DNA from: an uncultured Clostridium sp.
GTDB taxonomy: Bacteria > Bacillota > Clostridia > TANB77 > CAG-508
DNA length: 64,000 nt
Assembly: GCA_947367845.1 (NCBI GenBank)
Contig: CANBES010000005.1
Location: 5,072 to 69,071 of the forward strand
Direction of reading: 5' to 3'
The notes under the pieces: model-generated
Told to the model about the DNA's origin: nothing
What the model saw: the letters and a program-made list of their open reading frames with translations, nothing else
Database searches by the model: none
Made by a program: the position numbers and the translations under genes
In this document: piece after piece, positions 3,957 to 56,410 of the stretch
How the letters are laid out: every line of letters starts with the position of its first letter
How positions within the stretch are numbered: position 1 is the stretch's first letter

Positions 3957-3985
3957 GGCAATGTCACCAAATGTCCCAAAAATGG
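3957..3985 (-). repeat. GGGGAC-core repeat, type B, partial
   Basis: GGCAATGTCACCAAATGTCCCAAAAATGG. Matches the distal half of type B. Confidence 0.6.
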
Positions 3986-4074
3986 AGTGAATTTTGTGAA
4001 AAAAGCTTTTCTTTTTTTCGAAAATGTAATATAATAAGTTTGCGAAAATTTTAAATTGGCAAGGAGGGAATAAA

Positions 4075-6741
4075 ATGCCAAGTAACAATAAAGGGAATAA
4101 AGCAAGACCAAATAAAATACACAAAAATAAAAAGAGACATACAAGAAATTCAGCAATGAAAAATGAAAATGAAAAAACAACTAGAAGACCACAAGTAAAG
4201 AAAACAAGAAGTGGAAATAAAAAGAAAAAATCACATCCAAAATTAATGATGGCAATAAAAATAGCAATAGTAATCTTTTTGTTATTAGCAGTAATAGGAG
4301 CAGGAATAATAGCAGGAATATTTTTTGGACTATTTGGTGACGATTTTGAAATAGGAAAAGATGAACTAAAAATAGCAGCATCAAATTCAGTAATAGTAGA
4401 TGCAAATGGCTCAGTAATAGCTAACTTAAGTGGAGACGAAAAAAGAAAAGTAATAACATTAGACGAAATGGCAGACTACTTACCAAAGGCGTATGTAGCA
4501 ATAGAAGATGAAAGATTTTATAAACATAGTGGAGTAGACTTTAAAAGAACAGCAGGAGCAATAGTAACAACATTAATAGGAAAAAATACATATGGTGGAA
4601 GTACAATTACGCAACAATTAGTAAAAAATATAACAAAAGATGATGAATCATCAGGAATGGCAGGAATATTCAGAAAAGTAAAAGAATGGGCAAAAGCATA
4701 TCAAGTAGAAAGAATGATATCAAAAGACCAAATACTAGAACTATACCTAAACATACTATTTGTTGGAGGAGAAGGAAACTTACATGGAGTAGAATTAGGT
4801 GCTGAATATTACTTTAATAAAAGTGCAAAAGATTTAAGCTTAGTAGAATGTGCGTATTTAGCGGGAATAAATAGCAGACCAACATATTATAACCCATACA
4901 AACTAGCATCTGATACAGACACAGAAGAAAAAAGAGCAGAAAGAATAAAATCAAAAATACTAACAGTATTAGCTAAAATGAAAGAATTAGGATATATAGA
5001 AAATGAAGAAGAATACAACCAAGCAGTAGAACAAGCAAATGCAGGGTTAAAGTTTGAAAAAGGATCAATAGCTAGTGGAAGTAATCATTCTTACCATACA
5101 GATGCAGTAATAGACCAAGTAATAAGACAGGTAATGGAAGATAAAGATATATCAAGAACATTAGCAGAGAACTATGTATATAGTAGTGGATTAACTATTT
5201 ACTCAACTGTAGATCCTGAAATACAAGCAAGAGTAGAAGAAGAAACTAAAAAAGCACAATACATAAAACCAGGGCACGAAAAAAACAAAGATGGAACATT
5301 GCTAAATGAACAAACTCAAGCTGCGATGGTAATAATAGACAACAAAACAGGATATGTACTAGGAGTTTCAGGAGGATTAGGAGAAAAAGCAATATCAGGA
5401 TTGAACAGAGGAACACAATCAGCAAGACAACCAGGTTCATCAATAAAGCCAATAGCAGATATAGCACCAGCATTACAAGAAAAAGTAATTACAACATCAA
5501 CAATGTATACAGACGAGCTTACAGACTTTGGTGGAGGATATAAGCCAAAAAATGAAGAAAATTACTTAGGAAATATAAATATCAGAACAATACTTGCAAA
5601 ATCACAAAACGTACCAGAAGTAAAAATAATGAGAGAATTAACACCAGGAAAATCAATTGATTATTTAAGAAACTTTGGAGTAACAACATTAACAAAATCA
5701 AGTGAAGTTGAAAGTAGCAAACCAAACGACGAACACTTATCACTTGCAATAGGTGGATTATCAGAAGGAATTAGTCCATTAGAAATGGCAGCAGCATATG
5801 CAGCAATTGCAAACAATGGAGAATATATAGAACCAACATTCTATACAAAAGTAGTAGACGCAAATGGAGATACAGTATTAACACCAACACAAGAAAAGAG
5901 AAGAGTTATATCAGAACAAAATGCATATATAACAAGTACTATAATGCAAGGAACAGTAAAAGCAGGTGGAACAGCACCATATTGTGCTATAACAGGAATG
6001 GATGTAGCAGCAAAAACAGGAACAACTGATGGACACAAAGATAGATGGCTATGTGGATTTACACCATACTATTCAGCAGCTTGTTGGTTTGGATATGACA
6101 GCCCAGAAGAAGTTGTACGAAGAGAATATTCAGCTAACCCAGCAGCATTAATTTGGAGTTCAGTAATGAAAGATATTCATAAAGGATTAGCATCTGCAAC
6201 ATTTACAAAACCAAATGGAATAGTAGAACAAAAAGTATGTTCATTAACAGGTGGATTGGCAACAGCAGGATGTCCATCATATACAGAAATATTTACAGCT
6301 GACAATTTGCCAGAAGAATGTCAAGGACATGGAAGTCAAGCTATATGTTCAGAAACAAATAAAATAGCAACAGAATATTGTTCACAATATGTAACAGTAA
6401 CAAACAAGCCATATGGTGGACTGTTACCAAAAGAACAATTAAACTTGTGGAAACCAGTAAGCGGAGCAACTACTGCAGGTAGCGGAAAAGTAGAAGATAC
6501 ATGTAATGTTCATACAAAACCAAAAGAAGTAGAAAAACCACAAGAACAGCCAAAACCAAATACGTCAACAAATACAAATGAAAATACAACAAGTGGAAAT
6601 ACAACAGGAGGCAACTCAACAGGTGGAGGAACAACAGGTGGAAATACAACAGGAGGAAACTCTACAAGTGGCGGAACAACAGGTGGAGACAACACAGGTG
6701 GAAGTGGAACTGATGAAAATCCAGAAGAAGGAAAAGAATAA
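4075..6741 (+). CDS. penicillin-binding protein 1A (bifunctional glycosyltransferase/transpeptidase)
   Basis: EDERFYKHSGVD and GGSTITQQLVKN (GT51 domain); SSIKP and KTGTT (transpeptidase). Basic N-terminal tail plus one TM segment; T/G/N-rich C-terminal tail. Confidence 0.92.
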   Translation: MPSNNKGNKARPNKIHKNKKRHTRNSAMKNENEKTTRRPQVKKTRSGNKKKKSHPKLMMAIKIAIVIFLLLAVIGAGIIAGIFFGLFGDDFEIGKDELKIAASNSVIVDANGSVIANLSGDEKRKVITLDEMADYLPKAYVAIEDERFYKHSGVDFKRTAGAIVTTLIGKNTYGGSTITQQLVKNITKDDESSGMAGIFRKVKEWAKAYQVERMISKDQILELYLNILFVGGEGNLHGVELGAEYYFNKSAKDLSLVECAYLAGINSRPTYYNPYKLASDTDTEEKRAERIKSKILTVLAKMKELGYIENEEEYNQAVEQANAGLKFEKGSIASGSNHSYHTDAVIDQVIRQVMEDKDISRTLAENYVYSSGLTIYSTVDPEIQARVEEETKKAQYIKPGHEKNKDGTLLNEQTQAAMVIIDNKTGYVLGVSGGLGEKAISGLNRGTQSARQPGSSIKPIADIAPALQEKVITTSTMYTDELTDFGGGYKPKNEENYLGNINIRTILAKSQNVPEVKIMRELTPGKSIDYLRNFGVTTLTKSSEVESSKPNDEHLSLAIGGLSEGISPLEMAAAYAAIANNGEYIEPTFYTKVVDANGDTVLTPTQEKRRVISEQNAYITSTIMQGTVKAGGTAPYCAITGMDVAAKTGTTDGHKDRWLCGFTPYYSAACWFGYDSPEEVVRREYSANPAALIWSSVMKDIHKGLASATFTKPNGIVEQKVCSLTGGLATAGCPSYTEIFTADNLPEECQGHGSQAICSETNKIATEYCSQYVTVTNKPYGGLLPKEQLNLWKPVSGATTAGSGKVEDTCNVHTKPKEVEKPQEQPKPNTSTNTNENTTSGNTTGGNSTGGGTTGGNTTGGNSTSGGTTGGDNTGGSGTDENPEEGKE

Positions 6742-54904: not shown

Positions 54905-54963
54905 GACAAAAAAGAAAGCAAGAATGCTATAAACTTGCTAAAAGAGCAAGAAAGGGAAATAAA

Positions 54964-56410
54964 ATGGAGAATTTATACAATAAATTAGAAAATTATAATA
55001 AACAAAACTATTGCCCAATGCATATGCCAGGACATAAGAGAAACACAAAAATGTTAGGAAATAAACTTCCATACAAAATTGATATAACAGAAATAGACGG
55101 ATTTGACGATTTACATAACTCGCAAGGAGTAATAAAAGAAATTCAAGAAAAAGCAAAAAAACTTTTTGGGCCTGTCCAAAAAAGTTTTGAATGCGGACGT
55201 TCTGGGACAGACCAAAAAAGTTTTATACTGGTAAATGGTAGTACTTGTGGACTTTTAGCAGGAATAAGAGCAGTGGTAAAACCACGGAGATAAAATATTA
55301 GTTGCTAGAAATTGCCATAAATCGGTGTACAATGCAATTGAACTAAACTTTTTAGAACCAATTTATTTAAGACCAAATATAAACCAGTATGGAATTGAAG
55401 AAGAAATATCAGTAGAAGAAGTGCAAAACAAAATAGAACAAAACCAAGATATAAAGCTTATTGTAATAACTTCTCCAACATATGAGGGAATAATTAGCAA
55501 TATAAAAGAAATAACAAAAATAGCACATAAATATTCAATACCAGTCTTGGTAGATGAAGCGCATGGTGCACATCTTAATTTTGATGAAAATTTAAAACAA
55601 TACGAATCGCTAAATTCAGGAGCAGACATAGTAATACAAAGTTTACACAAAACATTACCAGCTTTAACACAAACAGCGATAATGCACGTAAGCAGCAAAC
55701 TTATAAGTGAAAAGAAAATAAGAACACAATTGGCAATATTTGAAACAAGTAGTCCATCTTATATACTAATGTCTTCAATTCAAGAATGTTTGAATATAAT
55801 AGAAAATCAAGGAAAAGAACTATTTGAAGAATATAGTAAAAGATTAGAAAAATTTTATGAAGAAACAAAGGATTTAGAAAAATTAAAAATTCTAGGGAAT
55901 ATTGTAGTTGACAAGCTTGTATATGACAAAGGAAAACTTGTAATAATAACTAAAGGGACGAATATAACAGGTAAAGAACTAGCAGATATCTTAAGGAAAA
56001 AATATAAAATTGAAATAGAAATGAGTTCAATTGATTATATTATTGCAATGACAAGTATTTGTGACAGCAAGGAGAATTTTGAAAGATTAATTACAGCTCT
56101 GAAAGAAATAGATAGAGACATTAGTTTTTCTAATAATGAAAAGACTGAGTATATATTTGAAATTCCAAGTAAGGCTAAAAGTATAAACGAAGCAATATTC
56201 TCTGAAAAATCAAAATTGATTAATATAAAAGATGCAAAAAATAGAATTTCTAAAGAATATGTTTGGGTTTATCCACCTGGTATTCCATTAATCACTCCTG
56301 GCGAGATTTTTGACGAAACTATAATTGACAAAATTTTAAGCTTTGAAGCCTCAAATATAGAAGTACGTACATCTTCTGGTGAATTTCCAAATGTAATTGT
56401 AACAGATTAA
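54964..56410 (+). CDS. Orn/Lys/Arg decarboxylase family (PLP-dependent) protein; +1 shift at CGG 55285-55287 and an in-frame 36-nt repeat-derived insertion
   Basis: MPGHK..., LVNGSTCG, and SLHKTLPALTQ (PLP Lys). The zero frame ends CCA CGG AGA TAA. Skipping C55285 gives VVKP-GDKILVARNCHKSVYNAIEL, continuous with ORF 55325-56410. Corrected length is 481 aa. Confidence 0.82.
55176..55224 (+). repeat. mini repeat (GGACGTTC-T-GGGACAGACC core) flanked by a 13-nt direct duplication, inside the decarboxylase CDS
   Basis: CCAAAAAAGTTTT-GAATGCGGACGTTCTGGGACAGA-CCAAAAAAGTTTT. Adds 36 nt (12 codons) in frame. Confidence 0.7.

What the first reader, a model, noticed from the sequence alone, without database searches (positions are those of the whole stretch)
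3957..55224. Dense modular family of palindromic repeats that display a shared GGGGAC(G/A)G core on different stems (about 18 loci in 64 kb)
There are four arm types.
- Type A: TGCCAA-TGGGGACGG(T/A)CC..-TTGGCA, usually as inverted dimers of about 60 bp. Loci: 6754, 18521, 27210, 32336, 35656, 49323, 52181.
- Type B: about 51 bp, GGGACATTTGGGGACGTTTCCTTTTGGACAAAATGTCC... Loci: 3957, 12665, 36467, 45707, 51637.
- Type C: GATGT(T/A)TTT-GGGGACGGAGC-AAAAAAACATC. Loci: 35607, 37713, 42037, 43316.
- Type D: GGTGTTTTT-GGGGACAGACC-TT-AAAAACACC. Locus 17722, with a mini copy at 55176.

The arms differ between types but are always self-complementary. The core TTGGGGAC(G/A)G stays constant and sits in or next to the loop. 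That is the signature of a hairpin recognised by a trans-acting factor rather than a simple terminator.

Copies lie almost exclusively in short intergenic gaps, typically between a stop codon and the next RBS. They occur in both orientations and sometimes as composites (types C and A at 35607-35703). The large palindrome at 15894-16330 carries a related TTTGGTGGGACA core.

The family resembles REP/BIME-type elements functionally, but the sequence is not one I recognise.
Basis: seen in the sequence. Interest (0 to 1): 0.7.

Follow-up and report, generated by a model that had tools for sequence, protein, structure and literature searches.

The report
REP-like hairpin repeats with partner transposase
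The window is peppered with short hairpin DNA repeats that carry one constant motif (GGGGAC(G/A)G) on different stems; in related gut Clostridia the same hairpins flank a single-copy REP-type tyrosine transposase gene, so this is a Gram-positive counterpart of the REP/RAYT repeat systems of E. coli and Pseudomonas.

Summary
All four repeat types sit at the stated coordinates and are far above chance (GGGGACRG: 11 hits against 0.39 expected).

The family is not confined to the window. The type A unit occurs in at least 15 species-level genomes of uncultured gut "Clostridium/Clostridia" MAGs. About 220 A units, plus types B to G, lie in 833 kb of related DNA.

The elements behave like REP/BIME elements:
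- They sit just after stop codons.
- They are enriched between convergent genes and depleted between divergent ones.
- They form arrays in a strict 33-nt register.
- They are gained, lost or swapped between close genomes.
- They are sometimes read in frame inside genes.

The predicted partner exists in relatives, though not in the window. It is a ~250-aa Y1/HUH transposase. Its best PDB match, by sequence profile and by predicted fold, is the E. coli REP-associated transposase (4ER8). The gene lies between dnaB and tilS and is flanked by inverted type A hairpins.

In a metagenome survey, 35 of 39 relatives of this gene carry flanking inverted hairpins: the stems differ but the loop is the same, GGGGACGG(T)TC.

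The closest described kind is the TIRtron/TIRYT system (motif GGGGWSAS; RAYT subclass 2.1). I rate this a new member of a known kind. Mobilisation itself is inferred, not shown.

The parts
3953..3979 (-). Weak partial type B-like fragment (TTTTTGGGACATTTGGTGAC)
   Evidence: nhmmer E=0.043; sequence.
6757..6785 (-). Type A monomer. It lies 15 nt after the stop of the PBP gene (4075-6741) and about 25 nt before the cysS start.
   Evidence: Pfam context.
12663..12720 (+). Type B element. It overlaps the stop codon of the cpsB-like gene and lies upstream of glmM. It is absent at the orthologous site in L008.
   Evidence: empty site.
15900..16322 (.). 423-nt foldback palindrome. It belongs to a separate repeat family whose copy in L018 ends in GGGGACAG-bearing inverted termini.
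17726..17760 (+). Type D hairpin (GGTGTTTTT-GGGGACAGACC-TTAAAAACACC) between pgi and the acyl-ACP thioesterase gene
   Evidence: folds at -12.3 kcal/mol, z -4.6.
18522..18583 (.). Type A inverted dimer: units at 18522-18550 (+) and 18555-18583 (-), upstream of pyk
27214..27242 (-). Type A monomer, 3 nt after the dtd stop, between convergent genes. The relative L001 has an inverted dimer at this site (a 33-nt indel).
32335..32395 (.). Type A inverted dimer (32335-32362 + / 32367-32395 -), directly after a canonical terminator at 32300-32332
   Evidence: (-30.2 kcal/mol, z -10.2). A compensatory G-C to A-T change and two wobble changes are seen against L001.
35607..35637 (+). Type C hairpin. It is absent at the orthologous site in L001.
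35651..35703 (-). Truncated A* variant (…TTGCCATTGGGGACACTCC on the core strand; 35651-35670) followed by a full A unit (35675-35703), in direct orientation. It forms a composite with the C element.
   Evidence: The same A* variant lies upstream of the RAYT gene in L100 and L106.
36465..36520 (-). Type B element inside the HAD/UMPH-1-thioredoxin reductase fusion gene (35719-37398). It is read in frame as ..SQNGQNVQKETSPNV..
   Evidence: The homologs P0005 and P0006 lack exactly these ~15 residues.
37713..37743 (+). Type C hairpin that overlaps the trxA stop codon. L001 carries an E/F-type element at the same site.
42037..42067 (+). Type C hairpin that overlaps the pta stop codon. It is conserved in L001.
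43316..43346 (+). Type C hairpin between the two ackA paralogs. It lies within an ~84-nt stretch that is absent in L001.
45705..45760 (-). Type B element just upstream of the RBS of the rsmE-like gene (45777-46517)
   Evidence: Pfam.
49323..49384 (.). Type A inverted dimer between gmk and priA. L016 has one extra 33-nt unit here. A more distant relative (L146) has a RAYT paralog, flanked by inverted hairpins, at this same gmk-priA site.
51632..51688 (+). Type B element between priA and def
52181..52242 (.). Type A inverted dimer between def and fmt
   Evidence: (-28.2 kcal/mol, z -8.1).
55158..55224 (.). Degenerate E-type pair inside the Orn/Lys/Arg decarboxylase gene. It is read in frame as PVQKSFECGRSGTDQK.
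   Evidence: The homolog 2x3l has a 14-residue gap at this place.

Best explanation
These are REP-like, non-autonomous hairpin elements. They are the amplified recognition hairpins of a single-copy, vertically inherited REP-type tyrosine (Y1/HUH) transposase of the TIRYT / RAYT subclass-2.1 kind.

**Shown:**
- The repeats form a multi-type family: a stem of any sequence, then (T)TGGGGAC(G/A)G on the 5' side of the loop, then a T- or A-rich 3' loop part.
- The family is spread through a genus-level clade of low-GC gut Clostridia.
- In relatives, a ~250-aa Y1 transposase gene sits between dnaB and tilS. Its HUH and Tyr motifs are intact.
- That gene has type A hairpins in inverted orientation on both sides.
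- Distant homologs of the gene in other bacteria are flanked in the same way, by hairpins with other stems and the same loop.

**Inferred:**
- The transposase binds the hairpin as single-stranded DNA and reads the constant loop motif together with the stem shape.
- It cuts and rejoins DNA through its tyrosine, as E. coli TnpA-REP and IS608 TnpA do.
- This spreads units to new sites, often directly beside an existing unit. That would explain the arrays in a fixed 33-nt register, in any orientation.

The other stem types (B to G) are then either mobilised in trans through the shared core or served by paralogous transposases. Paralogs exist at other loci in relatives.

Once inserted, the hairpins are transcribed inside operons and may secondarily affect mRNA 3' ends. 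The 33-, 45- and 48-nt versions survive in frame inside proteins.
For: **Family and spread.**
- Core and full-length patterns are far above chance.
- The exact type A pattern gave 98+ stretches, all in uncultured gut Clostridium/Clostridia MAGs of at least 15 assemblies.
- Types A, B and C co-occur across these assemblies.
- At least 9 stem types share the core.

**Hairpins.**
- Monomers, dimers, C and D all fold well: z-scores of -2.6 to -10.
- Between types the stems differ completely yet stay complementary.

**REP-like ecology.**
- Arrays are enriched between convergent genes and depleted between divergent ones.
- 40% start within 10 nt of the upstream stop codon.
- Units are spaced at a strict 33 nt (core spacing 39, 33 or 27 nt according to orientation).

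**Turnover.**
- Elements are present, absent or swapped for another type at orthologous sites.
- Close genomes differ by clean 33- and 66-nt indels.
- Elements occur in frame inside coding sequence.

**Partner gene.**
- L028 ORF 979-1782: Pfam Y1_Tnp 37.4 bits (cut-off 23). NCBIfam REP_Tyr_transpos scores 66 bits against 17 for IS200.
- HUH and YIHxNP are invariant in 34 homologs.
- In a profile search of the PDB the best hit is 4ER8, E. coli TnpA-REP.
- The AF2 model (pLDDT 80) has 4ER8 as its top Foldseek hit, E=3.9e-6, ahead of the IS608 and ISDra2 transposases.
- The rplI-dnaB-Y1_Tnp-tilS-ftsH synteny is conserved across loci whose transposases are 47-100% identical to the L028 protein.
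- All seven loci inspected carry inverted flanking repeats; in six they bear the GGGAC core.

**Wider survey.**
- 35 of 39 metagenomic homolog loci have flanking inverted repeats. In 28 of these, GGGGWS lies on the gene strand upstream.
- 75 of 141 cores are enclosed by stems of 6 bp or more, against 3.9% when arms are swapped between loci. There are 39 different stems.

**Literature.** TIRs flanking TIRYT genes share GGGGWSAS (PMC3733652). Subclass 2.1 carries a C-terminal HTH (PMC6006769). RAYT group 1, which Quentin et al. equate with subclass 2.1, also occurs in Clostridia (PMC5581495).
Against: - No transposase gene lies in the window. Its presence in the window's own genome is inferred from close relatives: P0169 is on record on a 206,988-bp contig, the same length as CATGLK010000001.1.
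- No target-site duplication or unambiguous fresh insertion junction was found.
- The clean 33n-nt indels could equally be deletions through the 7-nt TTGCCA microhomology that begins every unit.
- Only type A-like hairpins were seen flanking the dnaB-tilS gene. Types B to F are not tied to a transposase in this clade.
- The NCBIfam score is below the curated equivalog cut-off (66 against 80).
- The core sits in the loop, not at the 5' foot of the stem as GTAG does in canonical REPs. The recognition mode is therefore not simply transferable.
- Type A monomers show no strand bias relative to transcription (34 against 25).
- Quentin et al. reported finding no REP-like sequences next to subclass 2.1 genes.
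Confidence: 0.8

Rival explanations
1. The hairpins are primarily host RNA elements, kept by selection rather than spread by a transposase. They would act as weak terminators or attenuators, as 3' stabilisers of upstream mRNA, or as translation-coupled regulators placed just after stop codons.
For: - 40% of arrays start within 10 nt of a stop codon, and many overlap it.
- Type A units are typically followed by a T-run and preceded by an A-run.
- They lie inside operons such as gmk-priA-def-fmt and pta-ackA-ackA.
- G·T pairs make the core strand the better hairpin.
Against: - Type A monomers show no sense/antisense bias (34 against 25).
- The elements are not flagged as terminator-like, and a true terminator sits beside one of them.
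- Whole units come and go, and types are swapped, between 90-98% identical genomes.
- Copies occur inside coding sequences.
- This reading does not explain the conserved inverted flanking of a transposase gene.

It is still compatible as a secondary, exapted effect.
Confidence: 0.1
2. The elements are relics. The Y1 protein is a domesticated enzyme with another job, the hairpins no longer move, and present-day variation comes only from deletion, slippage and gene conversion.
For: - The gene is single-copy, sits at a fixed chromosomal site and is inherited vertically.
- No TSDs or fresh junctions were seen.
- Every unit begins and ends with the same 6-7 nt, so precise deletions are easy.
Against: - Different types occupy the same orthologous site in close relatives. 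Deletion alone cannot produce that.
- Extra units in inverted orientation relative to their neighbour cannot arise by slippage (L045 against L043).
- Type A units are almost invariant at 20 of 29 positions across species whose syntenic DNA is only 77-90% identical. This suggests ongoing homogenisation or spread, although the sample was ascertained on the pattern itself.
Confidence: 0.07
3. The core is a double-stranded binding site for a chromosomal protein: a nucleoid protein, a global regulator, a DNA-uptake receptor or an FtsK/SpoIIIE-type motor. The stems are incidental.
For: - An 8-nt constant motif occurs at high density.
- Type B is a row of direct GGGAC boxes rather than a palindrome.
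- GGGAC is a known Type IIS restriction site (BsmFI); this comes from my own knowledge.
Against: - Stems covary so as to stay complementary in 39 different versions.
- Non-repeat GGGAC sites number about 300 in 833 kb, near my rough composition-based estimate of ~330 (hand estimate, not a tool result), so there is no sign of avoidance or skew.
- The motif occurs in both orientations, so there is no replication-oriented polarity.
- A transposase is linked to the hairpins.
Confidence: 0.03

Closest known systems
TIRtrons / TIRYT (Di Nocera, De Gregorio & Rocco 2013, PMC3733652), equated with RAYT subclass 2.1 (Quentin et al. 2018, PMC6006769); Quentin et al. assign 291 of 292 sequences of Bertels et al. 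2017's RAYT group 1 to subclass 2.1
   Same: - A Y1/HUH RAYT-like gene, longer than classical RAYTs, with a C-terminal HTH-like extension.
- It is flanked by inverted repeats that share a GGGGWSAS-type motif. Type D GGGGACAG and A* GGGGACAC fit exactly; types A and C, GGGGACGG, differ at one position.
- The flanking repeats can form moderately abundant families arranged in dimers and clusters.
- Group 1 is reported in Clostridia.
   Different: - Here the flanking repeats are short hairpins with the motif in the loop and freely covarying stems.
- They have expanded to REP-like density, about one unit per 3 kb in the window.
- There are several stem types per genome and a fixed 33-nt register.
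- The published work calls them TIRs and, for subclass 2.1, reports no REP-like sequences nearby.
- I inferred the subclass assignment from length, C-terminal HTH and motif. I did not test it by phylogeny.
REP/BIME elements and RAYT (TnpA-REP) of E. coli; REPIN-RAYT systems of Pseudomonas (Bertels & Rainey 2011)
   Same: - 20-40-nt palindromic units, in monomers, inverted dimers and clusters.
- They lie after stop codons and between convergent or codirectional genes.
- Several unit types occur per genome.
- A single-copy, vertically inherited Y1 transposase is flanked by inverted units.
- The best structural match of the protein is 4ER8.
   Different: - There is no GTAG (or CGTC) tag at the foot of the stem. 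The conserved motif lies in the loop.
- The units are AT-rich, in a 30% GC Firmicute.
- The protein has an extra C-terminal domain.
- Arrays also include head-to-tail units at a fixed 4-nt spacer.
CGTC-tagged REPs (Di Nocera 2013)
   Same: The complement of the core contains CGTC (CCGTCCCC). HH dimers occur.
   Different: The defining CGTC is an unpaired terminal tag next to an 8-9-bp stem with a 4-5-nt loop and a CCA tail, and no transposase is associated with these REPs. Here the motif is internal and a transposase is associated.
Rickettsia palindromic elements (RPE) and intragenic REPs
   Same: Palindromic repeats are inserted in frame into protein-coding genes and translated as extra peptide segments: the TrxR-fusion linker, the decarboxylase, and tilS in relatives.
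   Different: RPEs are 100-150 bp and have no known dedicated transposase. Here the inserts are 33-48 nt, and most copies are intergenic.
IS200/IS605 ends and their MITE-like derivatives (PATEs)
   Same: They are subterminal hairpins read as ssDNA by a Y1 HUH transposase, and they leave no target duplication.
   Different: The protein is closer to TnpA-REP than to the IS200/IS605 TnpA.

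Membership tests
REP/RAYT (REPtron, REPIN-RAYT) systems | Short palindromic units present in many copies per genome, mostly extragenic | tested here: met
   About 22 units in the 64-kb window. About 223 A-type cores, 28 or more B, 19 D, 18 E and 10 C in 833 kb of 17 assemblies. Hairpin folds.
REP/RAYT (REPtron, REPIN-RAYT) systems | A RAYT gene (Y1 HUH transposase, usually single-copy) flanked by the units in inverted orientation | tested here: met
   Met in relatives, not in the window. All seven inspected loci (L028, L100, L106, L107, L108, L109, L110) have inverted flanking repeats; in L109 their core has diverged. In the metagenome survey 35 of 39 loci have them.
REP/RAYT (REPtron, REPIN-RAYT) systems | A conserved GTAG (or CGTC) tetranucleotide at the 5' foot of the hairpin | tested here: not met
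   No GTAG is present. The invariant motif GGGGAC(G/A)G lies inside the loop. Definition taken from PMC3733652.
REP/RAYT (REPtron, REPIN-RAYT) systems | The protein belongs to the RAYT lineage rather than IS200/IS605 TnpA | tested here: met
   NCBIfam REP_Tyr_transpos scores 66 bits (below the curated cut-off of 80) against 17 bits for IS200. Profile search of the PDB: 4ER8 at E=0.0024 against ISDra2 at about 0.65. Foldseek top hit is 4ER8.
REP/RAYT (REPtron, REPIN-RAYT) systems | The transposase binds and cleaves the hairpin as ssDNA | not testable with these tools
   This needs purified protein and oligonucleotide assays.
TIRtron / TIRYT (RAYT subclass 2.1) | Flanking inverted repeats that share the motif GGGGWSAS | tested here: inconclusive
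   - Type D GGGGACAG and A*/B-end GGGGACAC fit exactly.
- Types A and C, GGGGACGG, have G where the consensus has A.
- 28 of the 35 flanked loci in the survey have GGGGWS on the gene strand upstream.
- The published figure with the TIR sequences could not be read.
TIRtron / TIRYT (RAYT subclass 2.1) | A longer protein with a C-terminal HTH-type domain (Bac_DnaA_C, HTH_23 or HTH_28) | tested here: inconclusive
   - The proteins are about 250 aa with a conserved C-terminal ISYRxMEKxLxISRETLRKL segment.
- Only weak Pfam HTH hits were found: HTH_11 in 5 of 34 members, HTH_28 in 2, HTH_23 in 1.
- The AF2 model shows a helical C-terminal domain with pLDDT 81-91.
TIRtron / TIRYT (RAYT subclass 2.1) | Phylogenetic placement inside subclass 2.1 / group 1 | not tested
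MITE (TIR + TSD, DDE transposase-derived) | Terminal inverted repeats with target-site duplications and a related autonomous IS | tested here: not met
   No TSD appears at filled-versus-empty sites. The only multi-copy ORFs in the 833 kb are tandem or adjacent duplicates in L006 and L086, which I did not characterise.
Intrinsic terminators | A GC-rich stem with a 3-8-nt loop followed by a U-run, oriented with transcription | tested here: not met
   Only one of the 15 terminator-like sites in 26001-46000 touches a repeat, and that is a 5-bp stem within the type B element at 45710-45725. The elements show no orientation bias.

The most novel reading that the evidence does not exclude
A large RAYT clade that spans bacteria of widely differing composition (subclass 2.1/TIRYT-like, found here in hosts of 26-51% GC) recognises its DNA in a way not described for Y1 transposases. 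It would read a constant GGGGACGG(T)TC motif displayed in the loop of a hairpin whose stem sequence is free. In low-GC gut Clostridia this would have produced true REPIN-like populations of hundreds of copies and several stem 'species' per genome, persisting with a vertically inherited transposase at dnaB-tilS. That would extend REPIN-RAYT symbiosis to Firmicutes and to a RAYT group thought not to carry REP populations.
Probability: 0.4. Interest if true: 0.7.

Novelty: new member of a known kind. Interest (0 to 1): 0.5.

Why it matters
REP/REPIN-RAYT systems have been characterised mainly in Proteobacteria. In Bertels et al. 2017 only RAYT groups 2 and 3 showed abundant flanking repeats.

Here a RAYT of the poorly understood long, HTH-bearing kind is tied to an abundant hairpin family in uncultured gut Clostridia. 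The recognition motif is clear, and natural stem swaps supply covariation evidence for the hairpin.

This yields a concrete substrate for biochemistry on subclass 2.1/TIRYT enzymes. It also yields a marker for strain typing and for assembly-break diagnosis in these MAGs, and examples of repeats that add 11-16 residues to housekeeping proteins.

Tried and rejected
- **Exact-protein look-ups.** Two window proteins were not on record, so the source genome itself could not be fetched.
- **Rfam.** At gathering thresholds only RNase P was found.
- **IS200/IS608 TnpA.** A recalled E. coli RAYT sequence gave the first weak hit (E=2e-4). I used it only as a lead and then verified it with Pfam, NCBIfam, the PDB and a fold search.
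- **Genes bracketed by repeats.** In the window and loci these are ordinary housekeeping genes.
- **CGTC-tagged REPs.** Rejected, because the tag there is terminal and unpaired.
- **Sigma-54 promoter across dimer junctions (TGGCA-N-TTGC).** Rejected on reading the sequence: the GG-to-GC spacing is 9 nt, not 10.
- **CsrA-type GGA loops.** Considered but not pursued. The 29-nt conservation, the DNA-level indels and the transposase link go beyond an RNA-binding motif.
- **Terminators.** Rejected.
- **Phages and plasmids.** No match in either.
- **Remnant transposase gene in the window.** Negative, both by tblastn and at the glmM-downstream site where relatives carry a paralog.
- **Target-site duplications.** Not found. 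Intergenic DNA is too diverged in most pairs, and the clean 33/66-nt indels are ambiguous between insertion and microhomology deletion.
- **Covariation within type A.** Weak, because the unit is nearly invariant. Only positions 2/30 covary: T-A 131, C-G 23, G·A 22.

Full report
**1. The observation**

The window is about 30% GC. Nearly all genes are on the + strand, and it holds a class A RNase P RNA.

The motif GGGGACRG occurs 11 times against 0.39 expected. GGGGAC occurs 19 times against 3.9.

Reading the stated loci shows all four types as described. Full-length degenerate patterns each have zero expected matches and give:
- 11 type A units at 7 loci
- 4 type C copies
- 4 full type B copies

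Type D lies at 17726-17760. The 'mini copy' at 55176 is really a pair of a fifth type, E.

- The locus at 3957 is only a weak fragment.
- Type B is a row of direct GGGAC boxes with one small hairpin, not a palindrome.
- Two sites are inside genes.

**2. Anatomy**

The type A unit is TTGCCA-NN-(G/A)GGGACGG(A/T)CC-TTTTT-GGCAA. In 215 copies, about 20 of the 29 positions are almost invariant. That sample was ascertained on the pattern, so conservation is inflated.

Units form monomers, inverted dimers, direct dimers and longer arrays, always at a 33-nt unit spacing. Core-to-core distance is 39 nt for +-, 27 nt for -+ and 33 nt for ++.

As single strands the elements fold as follows:

| Element | Free energy (kcal/mol) | z-score | Note |
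|---|---|---|---|
| A monomers | -6 to -10 | -2.6 to -4.9 | |
| A dimers | -28 to -30 | -8 to -10 | |
| Type C | -7.1 | -4.4 | 10-bp A/T stem with the whole core in a 13-nt loop |
| Type D | -12.3 | -4.6 | |

I clustered all GGGAC sites in the window plus 99 related loci (833 kb). This gave at least nine stem types with the same layout: a stem, then (T)TGGGGAC(G/A)G, then a T/A-rich tail, then the complementary stem. Examples of stems are TTGCCA/TGGCAA, GATGTTTTT/AAAAACATC, GGTGTTTTT/AAAAACACC, GAAACTTTTT/AAAAAGTTTC and TGTCCA/TGGACA.

**3. Distribution**

These genomes are 77-98% identical to one another in syntenic blocks. Types B and C co-occur with A in most of them. Nothing was found in viral contigs or plasmids.

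**4. Position and turnover**

Arrays were found in these fractions of intergenic regions:

| Region type | Regions with arrays |
|---|---|
| Convergent | 24 of 67 |
| Codirectional | 97 of 529 |
| Divergent | 6 of 69 |

In codirectional regions 40% of arrays begin within 10 nt of the upstream stop codon, and several overlap it. Type A monomers show no sense/antisense preference (34 against 25).

The simple terminator scan flags none of them as terminators. Its one site that touches a repeat is a 5-bp stem within the type B element at 45710-45725. A canonical terminator at 32300-32332 sits just 5' of a dimer.

I compared the window with a 90%-identical relative, L001:
- 27214: monomer in the window, dimer in L001.
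- 35607 and 43316: type C present in the window, absent in L001.
- Downstream of trxA: type C in the window is replaced by an E/F-type element in L001.
- In the 32335 dimer: one compensatory G-C to A-T change and two wobble changes.

Across the loci many orthologous sites are filled in one genome and empty in another. Close genomes differ by exact 33- or 66-nt steps. No target duplication is visible. Every unit starts with TTGCCA and ends with TGGCAA, so such steps could be insertions or microhomology deletions.

**5. Copies inside genes**

- The B copy at 36465-36520 is translated as SQNGQNVQKETSPNV in the linker of a HAD-thioredoxin reductase fusion. Homologs at 86-87% identity lack exactly this stretch.
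- The E pair at about 55171-55218 is translated as PVQKSFECGRSGTDQK inside an Orn/Lys/Arg decarboxylase. The solved homolog 2x3l has a 14-residue gap there.
- In relatives, one or two type A units (11 codons each) lie in frame in tilS, giving KNCQKGPSPVA.

**6. The partner gene**

The window itself holds no candidate.

In L028, an ORF of 267 aa lies 70 nt from a type A unit, and a second, inverted unit lies downstream in tilS. The evidence on this ORF is:
- It passes Pfam Y1_Tnp (37.4 bits against a cut-off of 23).
- Its best NCBIfam model is REP_Tyr_transpos: 66 bits, below the curated cut-off of 80, against 17 bits for IS200.
- There are 978 homologs at E<=1e-5. Thirty-four aligned members keep N-H-x-H and Y-I-H-x-N-P invariant, and share a C-terminal ISYR..SRETLRKL segment with weak HTH matches.
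- A profile search of the PDB finds E. coli TnpA-REP (4ER8) first.
- The AlphaFold model (pLDDT 80) also has 4ER8 as its top structural match, ahead of the IS608 and ISDra2 transposases.

The gene sits at rplI-dnaB-[gene]-tilS-ftsH in loci whose transposases are 47-100% identical to the L028 protein. This indicates vertical inheritance. One homolog, P0169, is on record on a 206,988-bp contig. That is the length of contig 1 of assembly CATGLK, whose syntenic loci (L016, L019) are about 92% identical to the window.

In every one of these loci the gene has a hairpin upstream with the core on the gene strand, and inverted copies downstream. Homologs at other loci show the same arrangement:
- L108: TTGCCAAAAGGGACGTTCCTTTTTGGCAA directly on both sides.
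- L110: TGTCAATGGGGACGGAGATTTTGACA, a different stem with the same core.
- L146: a further paralog at gmk-priA, the very site of the window's dimer at 49323. It is flanked by GGAAAAG-GGGACGTTTTT-CTTTTCC.

**7. Generality**

A metagenome survey returned 80 loci with relatives at 29-54% identity, from hosts of 26-51% GC.

- Of 39 loci with enough flanking DNA, 35 have inverted repeats around the gene.
- Of those 35, 28 carry GGGGWS on the gene strand upstream.
- Of 141 cores near these genes, 75 are enclosed by perfect stems of 6 bp or more. When arms are swapped between loci the figure is 3.9% (maximum 8.6% in 200 permutations).
- There are 39 different stems, and the loop consensus is GGGGACGGTTC.

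This is the strongest evidence that the hairpin is the selected structure and that the loop motif is the part being read.

**8. Comparison with what is known**

The elements work like REP/BIME or REPIN elements, but they lack the defining GTAG or CGTC terminal tag.

Di Nocera et al. 2013 described 'TIRtrons'. These are RAYT-like TIRYT genes flanked by TIRs that share GGGGWSAS, some of which form moderately abundant families in dimers or clusters.

Quentin et al. 2018 equate TIRYT with subclass 2.1: long proteins with a C-terminal HTH and no REP-like sequences found nearby. They assign 291 of the 292 sequences of Bertels et al.'s RAYT group 1 to that subclass.

Bertels et al. 2017 report that group 1 occurs in Clostridia and has only low-abundance flanking 16-mers.

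The present family fits that kind. It adds a hairpin reading of the 'TIR', REP-like abundance, several stem types per genome, a 33-nt register and in-frame coding copies. No paper in the library mentions REPINs, RAYTs and Firmicutes together, and TIRYT appears only in the two papers cited.

**9. Verdict**

The best explanation, at confidence 0.8, is a REP-like hairpin family cognate to a TIRYT/RAYT-type Y1 transposase.
- Shown: the family, its spread, its turnover, and the gene-hairpin association.
- Inferred: ssDNA recognition of the loop motif, and active mobilisation.

I rate it a new member of a known kind, with interest 0.5.

Noticed in passing
window 49397-51628: priA is split into four overlapping or adjacent ORFs (PriA_3primeBD ... 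PriA_C). This points either to assembly indels or to a pseudogene of an essential replication-restart helicase.
   Followed up: partly
window 55270-55330: The Orn/Lys/Arg decarboxylase gene is broken by what looks like a single extra base: CCACGGAGAT where CCAGGAGAT would read KPGDKILV. The break is about 60 nt downstream of the in-frame E-type insert and is unrelated to it.
   Followed up: partly
window 15900-16322; L018 2530-2960: This 423-nt near-palindrome is itself a repeat family in related genomes. In L018 it ends in inverted CTGCCACAGGGGACAGACC termini and is bracketed by type A units. Its centre (16061-16166) gives a sub-threshold Rfam match to TwoAYGGAY RNA (30 bits against a gathering score of 43).
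   Followed up: partly
window 44615-44898: An insertion of about 280 nt, absent from the 90%-identical relative L001. It carries a promoter-like site, a structured leader and a 38-codon ORF (MSNNIFKEQDNKERKTNKVKFECRNGKIRILFEKPKEK).
   Followed up: no
L146 2441-3515 (site orthologous to window 49303-49397): A more distant relative carries an intact RAYT paralog between gmk and priA, flanked by inverted GGAAAAG-GGGACGTTTTT-CTTTTCC hairpins. This is exactly where the window has a type A inverted dimer. The dimer could be what remains after loss of such a gene, or the site could be an insertion hotspot.
   Followed up: partly
L118, L127, L150 (2501-3226); site orthologous to window ~14107: Another RAYT paralog sits just downstream of glmM in relatives that are 80% identical in glmM. 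No flanking inverted repeat was detected there, and the window has no remnant of it.
   Followed up: partly
L100 3925-3990; L028 762-788; L106 10925-10990: One or two type A units are translated in frame within tilS (KNCQKGPSLVA KNCQKGPSPVA), between the PP-loop motif SGGPDS and VAHVNH.
   Followed up: yes
window 35719-37398: A fusion protein of a HAD/UMPH-1-type nucleotidase domain and thioredoxin reductase, followed directly by trxA. The fusion predates the repeat insertion, because homologs without the insert are also fused.
   Followed up: partly
window 42122-43312 and 43376-44608: Two tandem acetate kinase paralogs, 71-80% identical over the aligned DNA segments, lie downstream of pta. 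Type C hairpins occupy both intercistronic gaps.
   Followed up: no
window 30411-32027: A 538-aa protein with an extremely acidic D/E/Y-rich C-terminal low-complexity tail. No function was assigned.
   Followed up: no
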